A DNA stretch of 12,079 bases. Origin: Promethearchaeota archaeon. Lineage in GTDB: Archaea > Asgardarchaeota > Lokiarchaeia > Sigyniarchaeales > SOKP01. The notes under the pieces were generated by a model. That model ran no database searches. It had not been told where the DNA came from and saw only the letters and a list, made by a program, of their open reading frames with translations. The DNA lies in contig JAHLWS010000083.1 in the NCBI GenBank assembly GCA_019057795.1, positions 1 through 12,079 of the forward strand, written 5' to 3'. The translations under genes were made by a program, and so were the position numbers. This document shows, one piece after another, positions 1 to 11,270 of the stretch; the first letter of the stretch is position 1; each line of letters begins with the position of its first letter.

Positions 1-156
1 AGTATTGGTATGAGTATTGCAATGAAGTATAAGGTTGAAAAGCTGTATTATCTTCAATTGTGGGGTCGAGAATATCAAAATCAACCATATATTAAGATTC
101 CTTTAACAAATCAGAAATTAATAAACATTATGGAGTTAACACTTAAACATGGCTAA
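1..156 (+). CDS. 3' end of a probable small CARF-like (Rossmann-fold) protein, 5'-truncated by the window edge
   Basis: Frame 1 is open from base 1 to TAA at 154-156 (SIGMSIAMKYKVEKLYYLQLWGREYQNQPYIKIPLTNQKLINIMELTLKHG*) and overlaps the next ATG by 8 nt. The small-residue helix followed by a 'KLYYL' strand resembles the segment after the D-x-T-x-G-x-K motif of CARF folds. The diagnostic motif itself lies outside the window, so the family call is inference. Confidence 0.5.
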   Translation, partial: SIGMSIAMKYKVEKLYYLQLWGREYQNQPYIKIPLTNQKLINIMELTLKHG

Positions 157-1213
157 TAGAATTTCAGAGTTTGTTTTAAAGCTAGAAGAATTACCAATAC
201 TTTTAAATGTTCTATATTTAAAAGCTAACGATTGGTTTCATATTTACCCATATATAATAGAAGAGAACACTTTCAGTGTCACTTTAGAAAAGATAGTAAA
301 AATAACTAGGCTAATAAACAAATCTAGATATCAAGAAATAATAACCGAAAAACAACTATCAGATTTTCCAAATATAGTACCAAAATTTGAAGTTTTACGA
401 GGAATCTTAATTGCCTCTGGATTCTTGAAGATGAAGAACTGGTCAACTATTCTGGAAGAATTAGAAAAAATAAAATTAATCGATCCATTGAAAGGAGAAC
501 GGCAGGCTTTCATTGGGTTGGATACTAATTGTTTCATAGATAGAATTTATTCTGTGTTAAAACATTCCTATAAAACAGATATTTCAAATTTTTATTTCGT
601 ACTATCAAGAATAATTAGAAACGAATTAATGTCAATGAGAACCATATCTAACACGCAATTAGACGATCTTAGAGAGAGATATACAAAAAATCATGAGATC
701 TTTAAAGAATTTTGGAACGGAGACAATCTTTATACGCGAACTCGTCATCTTGGTTTAGTAGAATTTAATAAATTAAGAAAACAATCTAAATGTTTAATTA
801 ATGATGGTCTAGACATAAATGAATCGAGAGAATTTGATTATCAAATAATCGAGGATTTTAGAAATCAAATATTAAAGCAAGGATATAATTTGCTCCTCTT
901 AAGTTCTGATAAGCAATTTGCTGACCAAGCACGACAATCAGGTATTAATAGCATATATCTTGAAAGACTACCGCTGGAAGATATGCCAAGGCAATTCTCT
1001 GGAACTTGGTCCATGTTATGTGATTTTCTTTATCTTAATAGCGTATATTTTGGAGCAATACATCTTGTTTGTAAAAAATATAAAATAAAAATGTTTGGAA
1101 TATGGAGAGGCAAAGGAGCAACAGAATGGGATTCTGAATCAGTAAAAATCTGGATAGGAAGTGAAAAGCTCTCAAACTTACTCGACCAACAACTAACTAT
1201 TGTAAGGACATGA
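149..1213 (+). CDS. PIN-domain ribonuclease with N- and C-terminal extensions (354 aa)
   Basis: Canonical PIN acidic tetrad: FIGLDTN (D125), RNEL (E159), EFDYQII (D230), LLSSDKQF (D254). Confidence 0.85.
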   Translation: MANRISEFVLKLEELPILLNVLYLKANDWFHIYPYIIEENTFSVTLEKIVKITRLINKSRYQEIITEKQLSDFPNIVPKFEVLRGILIASGFLKMKNWSTILEELEKIKLIDPLKGERQAFIGLDTNCFIDRIYSVLKHSYKTDISNFYFVLSRIIRNELMSMRTISNTQLDDLRERYTKNHEIFKEFWNGDNLYTRTRHLGLVEFNKLRKQSKCLINDGLDINESREFDYQIIEDFRNQILKQGYNLLLLSSDKQFADQARQSGINSIYLERLPLEDMPRQFSGTWSMLCDFLYLNSVYFGAIHLVCKKYKIKMFGIWRGKGATEWDSESVKIWIGSEKLSNLLDQQLTIVRT

Positions 1214-1269
1214 ATAAGTATTTATCGTTTGATGTTTGCCTAAATGAAGATCAATCATAATAATTTCAA

Positions 1270-1338: not shown

Positions 1339-3414
1339 TTATATTTTTTCAATGTTTTGAGCCTCTAAACCTTTCTCCCCTTTTCCAAGAACAAATTCGA
1401 CTTTATCTCCTTTATTTAACAGCTTATTACCAAAAATATTTTTGGAGTTCATGTATACATCTTTTCCTCCAATATCTGGAATGATAAATCCATAACCTGA
1501 TTTTTCGTTATAAAATTTTACTGTTCCCTTTAAAATATCTCCAATATTGGCATTTTTTCTATTTTTATTCTGATTCTGCCTGTCTTTATCGTATTTAAAC
1601 AATTTAGGATTATTTAGGTCAGTAGGTATTGATTGGTGGATAATGTGCTTAAATGGGCTTCCAGGAGATATTGCACGATTCGACATAAACCATTCGTAAT
1701 TAAGATCGCTCCCAACATTAGATGGGTATTCAACATTAGATGGTGCTTTCTCAAAATTGGTTATTTTCATGTACATCGATAGAACTTTTGGATCACATCC
1801 TAAGAGTTCGGCTGCATCTGCATTTTGAAAGGTCCTAGTCTCATCTCGAATTGTTGCCGAATCTACAATTTCGTAATTTATGGCATCATCATATAACGAT
1901 ATTTTCCTAACTTTAATATTATCTACTATAATCTTGACGCTACCGAGCCCTAGTGGTTTTCCCATCCCAATTTTATGAGCATTTTCCTCGTTATTCCCTA
2001 TCTCTAACGTCCAAATCAATTTCTTTAATTCTTCTTCTTTAACATTGTTAAAATACACCTTGAATATAAAATTATTATTTGATCGTAGAGCCCGTATCCC
2101 TACATTACGATCTGATCTTTCTAGAGTGCGGGGAATTTCGCTTATTTTATGATGCCAGTAGAATTTTCGTCCGCTAATCTCCGCCTTATATCGTCTAAAC
2201 GGGACAAGATCTTTTTTGTAAAAACCGGCGTAATCGTAATTCCATATTTGAGCCTTTATCCCATCTTCTTGACTTGGTTTTAATAAATAAAACTCTGTCG
2301 ACGATAATTTGGGTGAAGCAAGTTCCTTCAATACCTCGGCAACAAAATAATCTTCTGCACTAAACTCTTTTGTTGATATAGCTGGCGTAAATCGAACTCT
2401 TGAGGCGAGTTGGTCGTTTTTGCTTGTAAATCCAAATAAAATACATGCAGGGCATAACTGTTTAAGTGAAGAACAAGGTACGTAATCTTTAATGATGGTT
2501 GTTAAATTACTATAGAATACTTCCCTACCAATCTCAGCAAGGTTTAAATATATTTTTGAGTTATATGATTTGTAATATACTAAAGCTCCATCCAAATCGT
2601 TAATCTTGTTCGCTTTTATTCTTCTGTATCCAGTGTGTTCCTTTTTCTTAAATGCTAAATTAACCGTCTTATCATTATATAACCTAAAATTAACTAGGAG
2701 ATTCTCTACGGCCTTCTCTTCAATATCGATTTGTGGCTTATTAAGATTTTCGACGAATATAGATTCATTTGCCTTTCTATCGATATCTTCTCCGTGGTGA
2801 AAGTATCCTTTTATCTCATTATCATCAAATCCCGTAAAATATCTATCATGGTTTGCTCTAAAGCGAATTTCCTGCCCTTCTTCAAAATTTGATATCTCCC
2901 GTTTATATCTAAACTTATCCATTTTATACTTAATACAGGGTATTATCTTCCATCTACCATCTTTTGTGTGAATAACTTTTCCAGGATCTCCCGGTTTAGT
3001 TACTCGTTTATATAATTTTTTTTCGTGATCTATCGCTGATAAGCACGAATTTGTGAGCAATTCAAAAGAGCTGCGAATCATCCCTCTTAATTCACTTGAA
3101 GGAATCACGGGATTTTTAGGTGGTAATGGCTTATCATCGCTAATGTTTCGAAGATCTTCGTTCGAATAGAATTCAAGGCTATTTATTTGTTCTCCTTTGT
3201 CAGTTTTTAGATTAAATCGATTTACGTTAGATGTATTGGGTATGAATATTGGGCTTTTTGTTAAAAGAGTACATTCAATCCATCCCGTTAATAAATCTTT
3301 TTCATTCTTCAAATTTTCGAAGATGTGGTTTTTATAGCAATTTTTTTCTAAAGGAATAAAAACATAAGGATTTACGAACGTTTCTTTAGATTTGACTATT
3401 ACTTTTTTACCCAT
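1339..3414 (-). CDS. cas7: Type III-D Cas7-family RAMP with large insertion (TIGR03986-like), fused to a C-terminal cold-shock domain
   Basis: FVNPYVFIPL; LTGWIECTLLTKSPIFIP; PVIPSSELRGMIRSSFELLTNSC; zinc-type CxxxxxxCPACILFG; LASPKLS; GRKFYWH; glycine loop KIGMGKPLGLGSV. Last gene of the effector operon, with SD GGAGGTG at 3421-3427. Confidence 0.93.
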   Translation of the reverse strand: MGKKVIVKSKETFVNPYVFIPLEKNCYKNHIFENLKNEKDLLTGWIECTLLTKSPIFIPNTSNVNRFNLKTDKGEQINSLEFYSNEDLRNISDDKPLPPKNPVIPSSELRGMIRSSFELLTNSCLSAIDHEKKLYKRVTKPGDPGKVIHTKDGRWKIIPCIKYKMDKFRYKREISNFEEGQEIRFRANHDRYFTGFDDNEIKGYFHHGEDIDRKANESIFVENLNKPQIDIEEKAVENLLVNFRLYNDKTVNLAFKKKEHTGYRRIKANKINDLDGALVYYKSYNSKIYLNLAEIGREVFYSNLTTIIKDYVPCSSLKQLCPACILFGFTSKNDQLASRVRFTPAISTKEFSAEDYFVAEVLKELASPKLSSTEFYLLKPSQEDGIKAQIWNYDYAGFYKKDLVPFRRYKAEISGRKFYWHHKISEIPRTLERSDRNVGIRALRSNNNFIFKVYFNNVKEEELKKLIWTLEIGNNEENAHKIGMGKPLGLGSVKIIVDNIKVRKISLYDDAINYEIVDSATIRDETRTFQNADAAELLGCDPKVLSMYMKITNFEKAPSNVEYPSNVGSDLNYEWFMSNRAISPGSPFKHIIHQSIPTDLNNPKLFKYDKDRQNQNKNRKNANIGDILKGTVKFYNEKSGYGFIIPDIGGKDVYMNSKNIFGNKLLNKGDKVEFVLGKGEKGLEAQNIEKI
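1342..1536 (-). other. CspA-like cold-shock (OB-fold) domain at the C-terminus of the Cas7-insertion protein
   Basis: ILKGTVKFYNEKSGYGFIIPDIGGKDVYMNSKNI...LNKGDKVEF...GEKGLEAQNI matches the CspA pattern (GTVKWFN, RNP1 GYGFI, RNP2-like DVYMN, GxKVEF, KGxxAxNV). It is in frame with the RAMP through a polar linker (KDRQNQNKNRKNAN). Confidence 0.92.
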
Positions 3415-3980: not shown

Positions 3981-5363
3981 CTACACTAATTCATCTGCTA
4001 ATGATTTGAAATATTTTTCAAAAATATCATTGAAATCATTGTTAATATCTTTAATATCTTTAGTATCTTTAATATCATATTCCTCTGCGTTAAGTTTAAT
4101 CTTAACGCCTTCTAAAATACCCCGCCCAATATTGGAGCCTCCTCCAACAGATTGAAGCCCATGCCACAGTTCTTTAATACCCAATAAGACTATCCCTTTC
4201 TCATATTCTTCAGCATCATTTATCCAAATATTTAATTCGATATTACCGCCAAATGTTGCTTTTTCTGTGAAAAGTGCTGTATCTACGGCTCCACCAGTAA
4301 ATCTGTCAATTTTGTTACGTGTATAATTAAGAGGTATACTTTTATCAATAACGCTTTCATTAATAAAAAGTCTTGATTTTTGGGCACGAAGATCGTAATT
4401 AGGCTCTTTTTCTCTCGTTTTCGCATATCCGAAAAGAGGCTCCATAATTTTTTTAACTTGCTCGATTTTATCGAGCTCTCGAGCAACCTGGATTATTGCA
4501 TTTCTTAATGCGCCAACCCATGAAGTGCCAGAAACAACAGGTTCACCGTTCGAACTCAAATGCGCTACATCTTCTTCTGATGGGTCCGGGTTGGGAGCTC
4601 TAATCAACAATGAATGTGGAATTTTGAATTTTACACTTATATGAGTTTTGTTTTGAATCGTTTTAAGAGAGTTTGTTAAATTATTAAGCTGAATATTTCC
4701 CTCTTTAAAAGCCTCCCAGTCAAAGTTCAGCCAATTATCCCGATCTTCTGCTTTATCCATTAAATTAAGTTTCAATATTTTTATGTCAATTAACTCTAAT
4801 TCTCCAAAACCACGAGCAGTTTTTGCCCCTATGCGAATGTTTCCATTAGTAAATCCTTCTAACACTAAGAAAAGTATATTTTCGAATTTTGAAACCATTT
4901 CATCGTTGTCTTTATCTTTATTGCCCCGAATTGTCAATTCAATTCTAAATCGACAAGAAGCTCCTGGTTCCATTATTTCATAATTATATTTTGCAGTATT
5001 TTTAGCAGTTTTCGTGAAATAGTCGATTGCAACTCCATCTCTAATGTTTACAACACATTTTTCAATATTATCTCCATCGTAAAATGTAATTAAACTTTGC
5101 CTAGATTCTTTTTCTCTTTCTCCAAAAATTTGTCGAATTAATTCGTGTTCTCGATCTTTATCTTCCTCGAGAATTGAATCAAGATAATGTCTCGTTGGTC
5201 CAGCAATACCAGAAGCGGGAATAAAAACTTTATCGTACCAATCCCTACTTATGTCTTTATCTGAATTTGATTCTTCACCACAACCAAGAACTAAGGGAGA
5301 TTTAAATATTAACTTCCCCTTCACGTAATATTTATAAATAACTACATCTTCTATATCACTCAA
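3981..5363 (-). CDS. cas7: Cas7-Cas7 (double Csm3-like RAMP) fusion
   Basis: Two RAMP repeats. First: SPLVLGCG...SDKD...FIPASGIAG...IFG...IRDGVAID...IGAKTARGFG. Second: SLLI...EEDV...VSGTSWVGALR...LFG...TRNKIDRFTGG...VGGGSNIGRG. TTG start with SD GAGGTG at 5371-5376. Confidence 0.92.
   Translation of the reverse strand: MSDIEDVVIYKYYVKGKLIFKSPLVLGCGEESNSDKDISRDWYDKVFIPASGIAGPTRHYLDSILEEDKDREHELIRQIFGEREKESRQSLITFYDGDNIEKCVVNIRDGVAIDYFTKTAKNTAKYNYEIMEPGASCRFRIELTIRGNKDKDNDEMVSKFENILFLVLEGFTNGNIRIGAKTARGFGELELIDIKILKLNLMDKAEDRDNWLNFDWEAFKEGNIQLNNLTNSLKTIQNKTHISVKFKIPHSLLIRAPNPDPSEEDVAHLSSNGEPVVSGTSWVGALRNAIIQVARELDKIEQVKKIMEPLFGYAKTREKEPNYDLRAQKSRLFINESVIDKSIPLNYTRNKIDRFTGGAVDTALFTEKATFGGNIELNIWINDAEEYEKGIVLLGIKELWHGLQSVGGGSNIGRGILEGVKIKLNAEEYDIKDTKDIKDINNDFNDIFEKYFKSLADELV
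4042..4077. repeat. In-frame 9-bp tandem repeat (4 copies of TTAATATCT) encoding DIKDTKDIKDI
   Basis: ttaatatct ttaatatct ttagtatct ttaatatca read directly from the sequence. Confidence 0.85.
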
Positions 5364-7617
5364 TCTTTCTCACCTCTCGAGTCTTGAGAATTAAATTTGT
5401 AATAAATGAACTGCAATAAATATTATAAAGTTCTGTAGTTTTTCTGGAATAATACTTAGTGATTTCAAGATCTTCAAATATCTTAGCAACTTCTGTATTT
5501 TTAAAGGAATCAAAATCGACTTGATCGTTTGAGAGTTTTTTTAATAATTTATTGAAATCTTCTTCATTTACTTTCTTGTTCTTTATATATAGCTCCTTTT
5601 CAACCTTTTTTAACTGATTTAGGGCATTATCTTTTAAGTGTTCTAATTTTTTATTAAATTCATTAATGGAATTCGATGATTTTATAAAAATAAACAACCG
5701 TTGTAGAAAAGAACCCGAAACCTTAATGCGATTATACTTAGGACTGTTAATTATATCAAATACTTTCTTGTTTATAGTGGATTTTAAAGATTCCATTAAG
5801 CAAAATTCTATAAATTCCCTAAGTAAATTAATATTTTTTAAAAGTAGGACGTCTCTACTAGTTTTTTTTTCGAGATTTACTTTTTCGATATGAGAAAACC
5901 CATGTGTATTAACAGACACTTGCCCATATCCTTCTGAAGTTCTCAAGCCAAAAGCGAATTTATCCAATTTTCCAATGTTAAATTTTTGACCATCCTTTCT
6001 TTTTAAGACAATTACTGATCCTGCTGCTAGGGCTTGCCCTTGAATCTTAGGTAACCCCCATGTTGTATTATATCCTCCAACTTTTGTGAATTTCAAATAC
6101 GAATTTTGTATATCCGTTTCGTTTATATTAATTCCAAGTGCTTTTTCGATCTCTTCTATCAGAATTTCAGGATCTGGAGTTAAATGTCCACCATCGTTTG
6201 TTAAAATCATATCAGATGTTAATGTTATAACCAACTGATCAGTACCAATGTTTTGAATTATCCTTTCATATTTTTCAACAGATTTTACTTCAAGAAGACA
6301 TTTACCATATTGAGCGGTTTTAGATTTCCCTACATATATAACCAACTCTTTAGGAAGTATCTCAATTATATTTCTTAAATCCTTGAATTTTCCAATAATT
6401 TGACCTTTGAAATCAAAGTTAGGTTCTAACACATCGTAGTGAAAATAAGCACCAGTAATATCAACTGGCTGGCCTTCACTTTTAATAGCATGTCCTATTT
6501 TACGATCTCTAGGTCTTCTATTATGACTTTCGATTTTCGTCGATGGTATAAAATTTTGCATCATAGAAGAGTTAATATTAGAAAATCCACCGAATAGCTC
6601 CGTTTGGATGCCTTTTTCTCTATCCATTACTATCTCCAAGTCAGGTTCATATGAAAGATCAAAATACCTTTCTTTTCCTTTTTCTCTTACTATAGAGAAA
6701 GGGACTGGATGAAAAATATTGCCATCTACACTCGGATAGAAATTAGTGAAGTTAACTTTACCAGAGAGAAATATGTTTCGAAATTCTGGATTAGTATGTG
6801 CATTGGTGCTTAGACTTTTCTCTTTGATATAAATTCTCGCTAGTGCTCCAAGTATATAACTACCCCTTATAAACAATTCGCTTGTTTGTTGACCGTTTAT
6901 TAAATTAGACACTAAAAGTTGTTCTTCATTCGTGAGGTTAAGGTTAATTACGCAGTCGTCTTCATCACCAAACGCTTTTAATTCCACTTTATCGCTAGAG
7001 TTATTTTGAATCTGTTGATCAATTACTTCTAAACTAATTTCACCTAATCCTCTTGTTCTTGAACTGCCGAAATTTTTAGTAATATTACAAATCTTTTTAA
7101 AATCCTCTTTAAATTTATTAAACTCATTAACTTCATCGATATCAACATCTATATTGAAATGAAATTTTAAATCTTTCCTTAAAACGCGTGAAATTCTTAA
7201 TGAATTTTCTTTTGATACAAATTTTTTCCTCATCACAGAAGTTTGTGTTCTATTATAAGAAAAATATTTTTGAACTGAGTGTTTATCATAGATTTTTGAT
7301 AATTTAGAGTATTCTTGACAAAAGTTTAGAAAATCACGAAAAATTTTGTATTTCCCCATGGTTCCATTTGAAATCCTAAAAATCGTCTTCGAAGCACCCT
7401 CAGCGCCAAAAATTTTATCAATTTCATTGTTATTTAACATTTTCCAATCTGCTAAATCTCTTGCTGAGCTTATTATAATACCTTTTATCCTTTTGGCAGG
7501 AACTTCAGGTAATCCAAATTTGTCAAATAAGACGTCTCTATCAACAATACCAGCTTCACTTTCTCCCGATCCCGGTAAAGCATCGGATAACAATTCTAAG
7601 GTTAATTTTAATTTCAT
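5356..7617 (-). CDS. csx10: Cas7-Cas5-Cas11 fusion (Csx10-like RAMP with N-terminal Cas7 and C-terminal helical small-subunit domain)
   Basis: N-terminal Cas7: LLSDALPGSG...VDRD...GLPEVPAKRIKG...IFG...FGSSRTRGLG. Central Csx10/Cas5 part: FIRGSYILGALA, FYP...PVPFS, VGKSKTAQYG, VGGYN, AAGSV, GLRTSEGYGQV. The last ~160 aa are helical and charged, and the Cas11 call for them is inferred from position. ATGA overlap with cas10; SD GGAGGAG at 7626-7632. Confidence 0.88.
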   Translation of the reverse strand: MKLKLTLELLSDALPGSGESEAGIVDRDVLFDKFGLPEVPAKRIKGIIISSARDLADWKMLNNNEIDKIFGAEGASKTIFRISNGTMGKYKIFRDFLNFCQEYSKLSKIYDKHSVQKYFSYNRTQTSVMRKKFVSKENSLRISRVLRKDLKFHFNIDVDIDEVNEFNKFKEDFKKICNITKNFGSSRTRGLGEISLEVIDQQIQNNSSDKVELKAFGDEDDCVINLNLTNEEQLLVSNLINGQQTSELFIRGSYILGALARIYIKEKSLSTNAHTNPEFRNIFLSGKVNFTNFYPSVDGNIFHPVPFSIVREKGKERYFDLSYEPDLEIVMDREKGIQTELFGGFSNINSSMMQNFIPSTKIESHNRRPRDRKIGHAIKSEGQPVDITGAYFHYDVLEPNFDFKGQIIGKFKDLRNIIEILPKELVIYVGKSKTAQYGKCLLEVKSVEKYERIIQNIGTDQLVITLTSDMILTNDGGHLTPDPEILIEEIEKALGININETDIQNSYLKFTKVGGYNTTWGLPKIQGQALAAGSVIVLKRKDGQKFNIGKLDKFAFGLRTSEGYGQVSVNTHGFSHIEKVNLEKKTSRDVLLLKNINLLREFIEFCLMESLKSTINKKVFDIINSPKYNRIKVSGSFLQRLFIFIKSSNSINEFNKKLEHLKDNALNQLKKVEKELYIKNKKVNEEDFNKLLKKLSNDQVDFDSFKNTEVAKIFEDLEITKYYSRKTTELYNIYCSSFITNLILKTREVRKIE

Positions 7618-9236
7618 TTTAATATCTCCTCCATTTGTGGTAAATAATAATCTAATAATTCTAAAGCATCAAAATACGGAGTCATATTTTCATGGAATAT
7701 TTTAACGATATTTTGAAATGGAGGAAGTTTAACTTCTCTACTATCCATTCTTAATAGGAAATGATCCACTTCTTCTTTGGAGGCAGTAAGGAGTTGCTGT
7801 AATTTCTTTATTTTAGACCTTGGCCATTTATCTGCGGCACTAATAAATCCTTGAATTAAGCTTTTGAGATTTATCCATGAATACTTATCAGGTAAATTGG
7901 AATCCCCAACAACGGCCCATGGTCGCCATAGTAAATTATTTTGTTTGTAAATCATTTCTTTAGTTTTTAATTCTTTAGGAAGAGGAATTCCCTGAATTCT
8001 ATATTGAGTTTTTCTCGTTTCACTCAAATCTGACGTAAAACCAGATTGAATGACATGAAAATCAAGCCAAAAACCTCTATTAGAAAGATTATTTTTCTCT
8101 TGAATAATTTTACCTTTTTTTTTCGCTGATTTACAGAGTTCTTCTGCCATGGTATAGGCTCTATCAAACGGAAAAGTCGTTTTTACAATCGCAACTCCTG
8201 CGCTGGCAGAATGTGGGATAATTTTACCAAGAATCTTAATTTCTAACTTAGAAAGCTTTTTTAGAAATAAAGCAGCTAAATTTATTCCTAATTTTCCATT
8301 GGTTATGAAAGTAATATCATCTCCTTTTAAGATTATTGGTCTTATAGGTAATTTTACTTTAGAATTTTCATATTTCAGGTCAAAATTCTTTTTAAATTCA
8401 TTATTTTCCAATGAATTTATTAAATTTTTAATAACTTGTTTAAGTGCTTCTTTATAAATTTCGTTAAGTCTCCTCGAAAATTCACTCATTCTGTAGAGCG
8501 ACAATTCGTAATCTTTAATGGACTCATTTAACAATTCATGTATCGTTTTACCTACATTATCTCCATCAATATGAACGATAGAAATATAATTCTCTCCAGT
8601 TTTTTGCCCTAAATCCTCCAATCTCAAAGGAAATTCGTAATTGTGAAAACCTTTTAATAAATCTTTAAAATGATTTTTATCATTATTATCTCTTTTTCTT
8701 TTTGTAGGTAGCGAAAGATATTCGTCATTTTCTTTAAATTGAACGGGTAAACCACTGCTCAATTCAGCTTTTGTTATTCCAATTCCTAATAGGGGGGTTG
8801 TCTTGACGAAGGAATTCTTTTTCTTTACAAGTTTTTTAAATATGTTGTTATAATCCAGACTAAAGTTATTCAAAAAAGTTTTTTCATAGGCTACGTTAAA
8901 GCTAAGTAGCCCCCCAGAGAGTTCTAAAACTTTTTCTGACAATTTTTTAGTTATTTCTTTTGCTTTATCTTTGTCTTTAAAAACAATTAAGGCATTTCCG
9001 CCCCCCAAATATACGATTACCGCTTCATGCTCGGCCCAATTTATTCCTTCTCTTTTAATTGCTTCTAAAGTATTAGTACACTCTAATTTGATATATTTCT
9101 TTAACAAATCTTCAGAAGCATTTTCAACGATTATCGAGCCTCCTAAATTTTCTTTTAACCGGTTTGTCGAAAAAATAAAGTTTTGAATTCCGGTTATATC
9201 ATATATTGCAAGTGTTTTTTCCTCACTCATGATCAT
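7614..9236 (-). CDS. cas10: Cas10 large subunit, type III-D, lacking the HD nuclease domain; Palm2 motif KGDD
   Basis: Begins directly with AIYDITGIQNFIF...LKENLGGS; Palm1 VYLGGGNA; Palm2 IVHIDGDNVG and RPIILKGDDITF; SAGVAIV...PFDRAYTMAEELCKSAK; WLDFH. Only 540 aa. The real start may be the second ATG (9230). Confidence 0.95.
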   Translation of the reverse strand: MIMSEEKTLAIYDITGIQNFIFSTNRLKENLGGSIIVENASEDLLKKYIKLECTNTLEAIKREGINWAEHEAVIVYLGGGNALIVFKDKDKAKEITKKLSEKVLELSGGLLSFNVAYEKTFLNNFSLDYNNIFKKLVKKKNSFVKTTPLLGIGITKAELSSGLPVQFKENDEYLSLPTKRKRDNNDKNHFKDLLKGFHNYEFPLRLEDLGQKTGENYISIVHIDGDNVGKTIHELLNESIKDYELSLYRMSEFSRRLNEIYKEALKQVIKNLINSLENNEFKKNFDLKYENSKVKLPIRPIILKGDDITFITNGKLGINLAALFLKKLSKLEIKILGKIIPHSASAGVAIVKTTFPFDRAYTMAEELCKSAKKKGKIIQEKNNLSNRGFWLDFHVIQSGFTSDLSETRKTQYRIQGIPLPKELKTKEMIYKQNNLLWRPWAVVGDSNLPDKYSWINLKSLIQGFISAADKWPRSKIKKLQQLLTASKEEVDHFLLRMDSREVKLPPFQNIVKIFHENMTPYFDALELLDYYLPQMEEILK

Positions 9237-10557: not shown

Positions 10558-10596
10558 CTATTATCTATTATCTATTATTTATTATCTATTATCTAT
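10558..10596. repeat. 7-bp tandem repeat (CTATTAT, about 5.5 copies)
   Basis: ctattat ctattat ctattat ttattat ctattat ctat; it includes the TAG stop of the CARF gene (10593-10595). Confidence 0.9.
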
Positions 10597-11270
10597 ATTA
10601 CTGTGTGATTCAAATCTAAACCTTTATCTTCAAATATTTTATTTGTTATCCTAAGAGGGTTTTGAATTGTTTTATAAACTTCCGTTCCTGGCACTGGCCG
10701 TCTTAATTCTCTATCAAATTTCTCATGATCTATATATAAAATATCTGGACCATCAGGCCCTAAAGCAAGTGCGGCTATACCACATGCTACACTCATAATC
10801 TTTGTCCCTCCAGTTATATCCAAACCAATTTTACTAATATCTATTCTCTTTTCTTTATTTAAATATAATAGACCTAATCCTATAAGGTCTATGGAATTTT
10901 TAAATGAATTTTTTTTCATAATTTCACGCTTACATTGAATAAATTTTAGTCCAGTTTCATCAATAATTTTATTCAAAGTTACCTCAGATTCTTTAGTATA
11001 AATAAAAAATACGCCCGTTGGATTATTTACTAAGATATTTAAAATTATAGGTTCATGTGAAAACCCTACTGTAAAAATTAATCCATCATACTTTTTAAAA
11101 GAATTTTTTGACCTGGCACTCAATACAAATTTCTTTTTGCTTAGATTCCATATCTCGTCCATAAGAGAATCTGTATCCTCATTCTGTTTCTTTAATCTTT
11201 TTAGTTCAATATATTTATTCTCGAGTTTTGAGTTTAAATCTTTAATAACTTCTTTATTCTCTATTGTCAT
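10593..11270 (-). CDS. Stand-alone CARF-domain protein (TIGR02710-like CARF without effector domain); possible ring nuclease, sensor, or truncated effector
   Basis: GLIFTVGFSHEPIILNI, FFIYTKES, LDITGGTKIMSVA, YID...RRPVPGTE...NP. About 55 aa of helical N-terminal extension; the protein ends about 20 aa after the CARF fold. Confidence 0.85.
   Translation of the reverse strand: MTIENKEVIKDLNSKLENKYIELKRLKKQNEDTDSLMDEIWNLSKKKFVLSARSKNSFKKYDGLIFTVGFSHEPIILNILVNNPTGVFFIYTKESEVTLNKIIDETGLKFIQCKREIMKKNSFKNSIDLIGLGLLYLNKEKRIDISKIGLDITGGTKIMSVACGIAALALGPDGPDILYIDHEKFDRELRRPVPGTEVYKTIQNPLRITNKIFEDKGLDLNHTVI

What the first reader, a model, noticed from the sequence alone, without database searches (positions are those of the whole stretch)
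1339..1580. Cold-shock domain fused to the terminal Cas7-insertion subunit
Seen: a full-length CspA-like domain follows the RAMP in frame after a polar linker. Known: cold-shock domains bind and melt single-stranded RNA, and in the Synechocystis III-Dv complex the Cas7-insertion subunit sits at the crRNA 3' end involved in target seeding. Inference: this complex may carry a built-in RNA chaperone that captures or unfolds structured targets, or aids crRNA 3' maturation. RNP2 is diverged (VYMN versus VFVH) and the CspA Trp is replaced by Phe, so specificity may differ. RAMP-CSD fusions may exist in databases, but I know of no functional characterisation.
Basis: partly seen in the sequence, partly recalled or inferred. 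Interest (0 to 1): 0.78.

Follow-up and report, generated by a model that had tools for sequence, protein, structure and literature searches.

The report
Cold-shock domain on CRISPR head subunit
An Asgard archaeon's RNA-targeting CRISPR complex (type III-Dv) carries a real cold-shock RNA-binding domain on its last subunit; this optional add-on has been gained and lost several times in the family, was grafted back on in this lineage by gene swapping, and probably helps the complex catch single-stranded RNA, which nobody appears to have tested.

Summary
The fusion is real. Window 1339-3414(-) is one 691-aa ORF: a TIGR03986 Cas7-insertion subunit, a disordered ~10-residue linker, and a full CspA-fold domain (residues 629-690). 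It lies in a complete III-Dv operon of a Lokiarchaeia genome. The identical protein is on two other assembled contigs, so misassembly is unlikely.

The gene is a recent chimera. Its Cas7 core is 94% identical to relatives with no cold-shock domain (CSD). The CSD comes from a different, 51%-identical fused allele found in near-identical operons. Sister loci hold the same core unfused, either clean or followed by an orphan CSD with a premature stop. Family-wide, CSD tails need at least 6 gains or losses (11 counting S1-like tails), so the domain is an optional accessory.

Best reading (about 45%): a tethered ssRNA-binding/unfolding arm at the seed end of the complex. In this sub-lineage the binding face is partly eroded and constraint looks weak. 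Precedent: CSD-Cmr6 in a solved III-B complex (9arw), already noted by this scan on other DNA. No paper on the III-D fusion was found. New variant of a known kind.

The parts
1339..3414 (-). Cas7-insertion (TIGR03986) + C-terminal CSD fusion gene, 691 aa
1345..1530 (-). Cold-shock domain, residues 629-690 (structured from about 627); derived from fused allele class A
1552..1584 (-). Polar, disordered linker (residues 611-621): the basic tail of the CSD-less allele B
1553..1554 (-). Recombination junction: allele B sequence ends at 1554, allele A (CSD) begins at 1553; 65 bp shorter than the unfused sister loci L001-L003, which removes the stop codon
1585..3414 (-). Cas7-insertion core (Cas7 + INS + C-terminal extension), allele class B; 94-99.5% identical to L001/L048/L047, 51% to L009
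1696..1698 (-). Y573, equivalent of the seed-stacking F767 of Synechocystis Cas7-insertion
   Evidence: PMC11026444
3407..3961 (-). csx19
   Evidence: TIGR03984 86.2 bits, cut-off 35
3981..5363 (-). cas7-2x (two RAMP domains)
5356..7617 (-). cas7-cas5(csx10)-cas11 fusion
   Evidence: Cas5_IIId model 4-748; Cas11 part inferred from position and length
7614..9236 (-). cas10 of III-D type, short, no HD hit
   Evidence: Cas10d 440 bits
9648..10475 (-). cas6

Best explanation
This is the terminal (Cas7-insertion) subunit of a type III-Dv effector with an optional, flexibly tethered cold-shock OB-fold. SHOWN: fold, frame, operon, flexible linker, recombinant origin, recurrence, dispensability in sister loci. 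INFERRED: (1) the subunit caps the crRNA 3' end and holds the seed, as in Synechocystis; (2) the CSD hangs off the C-terminal extension about 50 residues after the seed-stacking aromatic, so it works at the seed pole, where the target's 5' flank lies; (3) it binds single-stranded RNA with little sequence specificity through its aromatic face, raising local target concentration and keeping the seed-adjacent stretch unfolded, which speeds seeding on structured transcripts. It tunes efficiency and is not needed for assembly or cutting. In this sub-lineage binding is probably weaker than in CspA (H33, F34 and Y42 lost).
For: Full CspA fold. K10, aromatic 11/12/18/20/31, D29 and K60 kept. Y573 = F767. 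CSD tails recur: at least 6 changes on the core tree, 5 forced by well-supported branches; 11 with weak CSD or S1-like tails; one 97%-supported distant clade mixes CSD and S1-like tails. Among Lokiarchaeia, 3 of the 7 genomes with TIGR03986 have a CSD tail, one on both of two tandem copies. Purifying selection on the CSD in the P0008/P0010 pair equals that on the core (dN/dS 0.21 vs 0.19, p 2e-5). Once unfused, the CSD took a nonsense change (L001-3), whereas re-fused copies stay open across 14 substitutions. Convergence: CSD on Cmr6, a crRNA-3'-end subunit of III-B (9arw_H, E 3e-10; position from established knowledge).
Against: No functional data. About 90% of the 150 nearest family representatives have no such tail, and 75-95%-identical relatives do without it. 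In the window's own sub-lineage dN/dS is 0.47 (p 0.06) and 0.61 (not significant; few sites), and RNP2 is eroded. The same C-terminus also collects unrelated passengers (AAA ATPase, GmrSD-N, helical tails), so it may simply tolerate fusions. The host already has three free Csp genes. The position of the CSD relative to RNA was not modelled.
Confidence: 0.45

Rival explanations
1. Near-neutral passenger in this lineage: the last gene of the operon is swapped as a cassette, the junction fell in frame by chance (about 1 in 3), and a once-useful CSD is now drifting.
For: Three states in operons 89-96% identical; dN/dS 0.47-0.68 for this CSD type; loss of H33/F34/Y42; unrelated domains also fuse here.
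Against: The fold and five aromatics are intact; the RNP2 change is old (shared with P0007, dS about 0.35) and the frame stayed open; the orphaned copy decayed but fused ones did not; strong constraint in sister fused lineages.
Confidence: 0.22
2. crRNA 3' maturation aid: the CSD holds the repeat-derived 3' tail of the Cas6-cut crRNA and shields it or presents it to host exonucleases, as Csm5 recruits RNase R/PNPase in III-A.
For: The subunit caps the crRNA 3' end. The linked array repeat begins U-rich (GTTTTATTTT...), the kind of ligand Csps favour (own knowledge). Csm5 precedent (PMC9762709, PMC5389561 abstracts).
Against: The CSD-less locus L048 has the same U-rich repeat and CSD-bearing L083 sits by an A-rich repeat. 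Synechocystis makes a single 37-nt crRNA in E. coli with no C-terminal CSD.
Confidence: 0.13
3. Protein-facing role: the OB-fold shields the seed head from anti-CRISPRs, or docks the complex on ribosomes or RNA polymerase to meet nascent transcripts; head-gene swapping is an arms-race signature.
For: The Cas7-insertion core is the one gene exchanged wholesale (51% vs 89-96% for neighbours). The window's CSD has a patch of clustered amino-acid changes. One genome keeps two heads 37% identical.
Against: The conserved positions are those of the nucleic-acid-binding face. No partner is known.
Confidence: 0.12
4. Assembly chimera of two co-occurring strains.
For: The gene is a mosaic, and the MAG is 7.5% contaminated.
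Against: Same junction in three other assemblies from three runs, two haplotypes; the two alleles share no long word at the junction.
Confidence: 0.02

Closest known systems
Synechocystis PCC 6803 type III-Dv Cas7-insertion (PDB 8s9t chain E; PMC11026444)
   Same: Same five-gene order, TIGR03986 family, same fold (Foldseek E 8e-28; INS Z 11.5), seed-stacking aromatic kept.
   Different: That protein has an uncharacterised, flexible 112-residue N-terminal domain and ends about 18 residues after the core; ours has no N-terminal domain and a C-terminal CSD. 17% identity.
CSD-containing Cmr6 of a type III-B complex (PDB 9arw chain H; 9z7q, 9z7v, 9z7x)
   Same: A cold-shock domain fused to a Cas7-family subunit of a type III effector (profile hit E 3.3e-10, residues 4-65).
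   Different: III-B, N-terminal fusion, different subunit; independent origin inferred. No paper on it was found in the library.
CspA/CspE-family cold-shock proteins (Pfam PF00313)
   Same: Five-stranded OB fold, RNP1, most of the aromatic face.
   Different: Tethered, not free; W11F, H33N, F34S, no Y42; net charge +2 against -5 for host Csps; does not nest among the host's free Csps in a short, low-resolution tree.
Type III-E Cas7-11 Cas7.4-INS-CTE and III-D2 Cas7x3 (7wah, 9wxh)
   Same: Homologous Cas7 + insertion + C-terminal extension.
   Different: Fused to upstream Cas7 domains; no C-terminal CSD detected.
CSDs in CoCoNuT type IV restriction systems (PMC11090510)
   Same: CSD-like OB folds as accessory, gained-and-lost domains of predicted RNA-targeting defence proteins.
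   Different: Unrelated McrBC scaffold; function there is also predicted only.

Membership tests
Type III-Dv effector | Gene order cas10, cas7-cas5-cas11, cas7-2x, csx19, cas7-insertion | tested here: met
   order as in PMC11026444
Type III-Dv effector | Terminal subunit of family TIGR03986 with INS domain | tested here: met
   238.8 bits vs cut-off 161; INS model matches 8s9t_E Z 11.5, rmsd 3.3, 161 aligned
Type III-Dv effector | Seed-stacking aromatic in the C-terminal extension (F767) | tested here: met
   aligned to Y573
Type III-Dv effector | Cas6 and a CRISPR array with an ATTGAAAC-type handle | tested here: met
   cas6 in window; array on contig C3, whose end overlaps the window end by 124 bp at 99%; linkage inferred from that overlap
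Type III-Dv effector | crRNA-guided RNA cleavage and second-messenger synthesis | not testable with these tools
   needs reconstitution
Cold-shock domain (PF00313) | Profile score over the gathering cut-off, full length | tested here: met
   52.8 vs 27 bits, positions 2-65 of 66
Cold-shock domain (PF00313) | Five-stranded OB barrel | tested here: met
   TM 0.89-0.91 to CspA/CspE/CspB
Cold-shock domain (PF00313) | RNP1 motif | tested here: met
   GYGFI
Canonical CspA-type RNA chaperone | RNP2 motif VFVHF with His33 and Phe34 | tested here: not met
   VYMNS; only the first aromatic is kept
Canonical CspA-type RNA chaperone | Named Csp equivalog (CspA, CspC, CspD, CspE) | tested here: not met
   33-54 bits against cut-offs of 115-152
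Canonical CspA-type RNA chaperone | Binds and melts ssRNA; cold induction | not testable with these tools
   needs binding and melting assays
Retron Se72 (type V) CSD effector | Score over cut-off and a retron RT alongside | tested here: not met
   41 vs 82 bits; no RT among the window's ORFs

The most novel reading that the evidence does not exclude
Type III effectors have repeatedly and convergently put an interchangeable OB-fold (CSD or S1) on the crRNA-3' pole, in III-D (C-terminus of Cas7-insertion) and III-B (N-terminus of Cmr6), as a built-in RNA chaperone that overcomes target structure. In Asgard archaea the seed-bearing head is a swappable cassette, sometimes in two versions per operon, and selection re-grafted the CSD after it was lost. 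Such a module could be moved onto Cas7-11-type RNA tools.
Probability: 0.3. Interest if true: 0.75.

Novelty: new variant of a known kind. Interest (0 to 1): 0.52.

Why it matters
RNA structure limits every RNA-targeting CRISPR effector, and how type III complexes reach folded transcripts is an open question. This locus gives a ready natural experiment: nearly identical Asgard operons with the same head subunit fused, unfused, or followed by a dead CSD. If the CSD speeds seeding, it explains a recurring accessory of type III heads and offers a graftable part for compact III-D/III-E tools. If it does nothing, it is a clear case of domain accretion by cassette swapping.

Tried and rejected
Junction scan of JGI metagenomes: no match. 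The search for related loci in genome contigs: nothing. Complex prediction of CSD with the core: no verdict, score 0.08; not used either way. Coevolution (232 sequences) did not place the C-terminus relative to the seed pocket; too noisy. U-rich repeat vs CSD: no correlation. CSD tree with host Csps: 72 columns, cannot count captures. INS domain as a cold-shock-like barrel: only Z 3.5-4.1 to RNase R and Unr CSDs, inconclusive. S1 identity of the beta-rich tails: Atlas scores 0.80-0.83, leads only; no Pfam support. The Synechocystis N-terminal domain was not among the best 60 hits of my CSD profile; not excluded as an OB fold. Paper searches for the fusion found none; subscription journals are mostly missing. 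Kato 2022 is not held; a guessed PMC id was an unrelated paper. The careful tree timed out; FastTree was used, so deep forks are soft and gains cannot be told from losses.

Full report
OBSERVATION. Window 1339-3414(-) is a single 691-aa frame. It scores 238.8 bits on TIGR03986 (cut-off 161) and carries Pfam CSD at residues 629-690 (52.8 bits, cut-off 27). The AlphaFold model (mean pLDDT 93.6) has a confident CSD joined by a linker with pLDDT under 50 at 613-619. Foldseek matches the core to Cas7-11 and to Synechocystis III-Dv chain 8s9t_E, and the tail to CspE/CspA/CspB at TM 0.89-0.91.

CONTEXT. Upstream lie csx19, cas7-2x, a cas7-cas5-cas11 fusion, a short III-D cas10, cas6 and CARF genes, the III-Dv order of PMC11026444. 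The host is a Lokiarchaeia (Promethearchaeia) genome: a genome of the same family, G152, encodes P0020 = TXT67222.1, named Promethearchaeota. Contig C3 overlaps the window's right end by 124 bp at 99% and holds a CRISPR array about 1 kb further on. The genome has three free Csp genes besides.

NOT AN ARTEFACT. Reads could not be checked. The identical protein is on Logan contigs of two runs, and a third run holds a different haplotype, P0123, with the same junction.

THE GENE IS A RECOMBINANT. The nearest homologues (P0001-P0004, 94-75% identical) are 624-628 aa and end just after the core; the fused ones (P0005-P0010) are only 48-53% identical. Against locus L009 (fused allele A) the window is 91-96% identical in cas10, cas7-5-11, cas7-2x, csx19 and the PIN gene, 84% in the CSD, but 51% in the Cas7-insertion core; against L001, L048 and L047 (allele B) the core is 94-99.5% identical. 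Three states of allele B exist: clean and CSD-less (L005, L048), stop codon followed by allele A's old linker and a CSD with a premature TAA (L001-L003), and fused in frame by a junction 65 bp shorter (window, L045-L047). Identities to outgroup loci suggest that B is the resident allele and A came in from an L006-like lineage (core 81% vs 66-69% for neighbours); this direction is inferred. Either way a CSD-less core gained the domain recently. The window and P0123 differ at 4 sites in 608 core codons but 14 in 64 CSD codons, so the CSD part has been exchanged again since.

HOW WIDESPREAD. Of 161 genomes of the class, 7 have TIGR03986 over the cut-off. CSD tails occur in the window's genome, in both tandem copies of G152 (37% identical to each other) and in one copy of G156; none in G154, G063 or G039; G022 is cut by its contig end. 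Among the 150 best 50%-cluster representatives (of 2,597 at E under 1e-30), 5 have a CSD over the Pfam cut-off, 3 a weaker CSD hit and 6 a beta-rich tail that looks like an OB fold, two with S1 leads. This sample is biased towards the query. On a 230-row core tree the strict CSD label needs at least 6 changes (5 forced by well-supported branches) and any OB-like tail 11; one distant clade (support 97) mixes CSD and S1-like tails. Distant fused genes checked also sit in III-D operons. Other passengers at the same end include AAA ATPases and GmrSD-N.

SELECTION. CSD dN/dS is 0.21 for P0008/P0010 (core 0.19; p 2e-5), 0.47 for P0005/P0007 (core 0.31; p 0.06) and 0.61 for window/P0123 (not significant, 14 changes). 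The family keeps the domain under constraint where motifs are canonical; the window's type is looser.

MECHANISM. In Synechocystis the Cas7-insertion subunit cradles the six 3' crRNA bases that seed target binding, with F767 stacking on U(32). F767 aligns to Y573 here, so the C-terminal extension touches the seed and the CSD follows about 50 residues later on a flexible linker. Since the crRNA 3' end pairs with the target's 5' side, the nearest free ssRNA is the target's 5' flank, or the crRNA 3' tail before trimming. The tail idea found no support: a CSD-less locus has the same U-rich repeat. The most likely role is a low-specificity ssRNA-binding arm that raises capture and keeps the seed-adjacent target unfolded (about 45%). 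All of this step is inference. Rivals: drifting passenger (22%), crRNA maturation (13%), protein-facing or anti-anti-CRISPR role (12%), misassembly (2%).

WHAT IS KNOWN. It is a III-Dv member on every feature tested, and a CSD by profile and fold, but not a canonical Csp (RNP2 not met). So CSD on a Cas7-family subunit is not without precedent, and databases already label some homologues 'CSD domain-containing'. No paper describing the III-D fusion or testing any such CSD was found. The scan had not recorded this III-D fusion on other DNA.

VERDICT. Real, recurrent, optional and uncharacterised: a new variant of a known kind.

Noticed in passing
L085:10030-14410 (G152:C15): A Lokiarchaeia III-Dv operon ends in two tandem Cas7-insertion genes, 37% identical, each with its own CSD: possibly two alternative heads for one complex.
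   Followed up: partly
P0016, P0027, P0037 (AAA ATPase tails); P0048, P0084 (GmrSD-N tails); P0137, P0147, P0157, P0079 (helical tails): Other Cas7-insertion proteins carry unrelated C-terminal domains, some of defence type. Loci not read.
   Followed up: partly
window 1241-1258 (-): First codons of a PHP-family gene (MIDLHL) survive after the CSD; the gene is whole in L001, L047 and on contig C29 but deleted here and in L009.
   Followed up: partly
G000:C29 (1-1239 and 13540-14114 match the window's ends at 93-96%): A second type III locus (separate Cas7 genes, 768-aa Cas10, cas1, cas4) has the same flanking PIN and wHTH-CARF genes: two effector cassettes in one chassis, or two strains in the MAG.
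   Followed up: partly
window 10593-11270 (-): The 225-aa CARF gene is half the length of its 449-aa homologue in L006, but G152 has a similar 227-aa stand-alone form, so the short form may be stable.
   Followed up: partly
window 149-1213 (+): 354-aa gene matching the nuclease part of CARF-PIN models, with a separate 165-aa partner upstream in L009/L047/L048 (weak Cas_NE0113 hit): a split CARF-PIN effector.
   Followed up: partly
window 2479-3021 (-), INS domain: The INS domain has weak structural likeness (Z about 4) to RNase R and Unr cold-shock domains; the head may already hold an OB-like barrel.
   Followed up: partly
L013:1474-2901 (G000:C5): The host also has a DEAD-box-like helicase with an N-terminal CSD.
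   Followed up: no
PDB 8s9t chain E residues 1-112: The unresolved N-terminal domain of the Synechocystis subunit may be a positional analogue of the CSD tail; its fold was not determined here.
   Followed up: no
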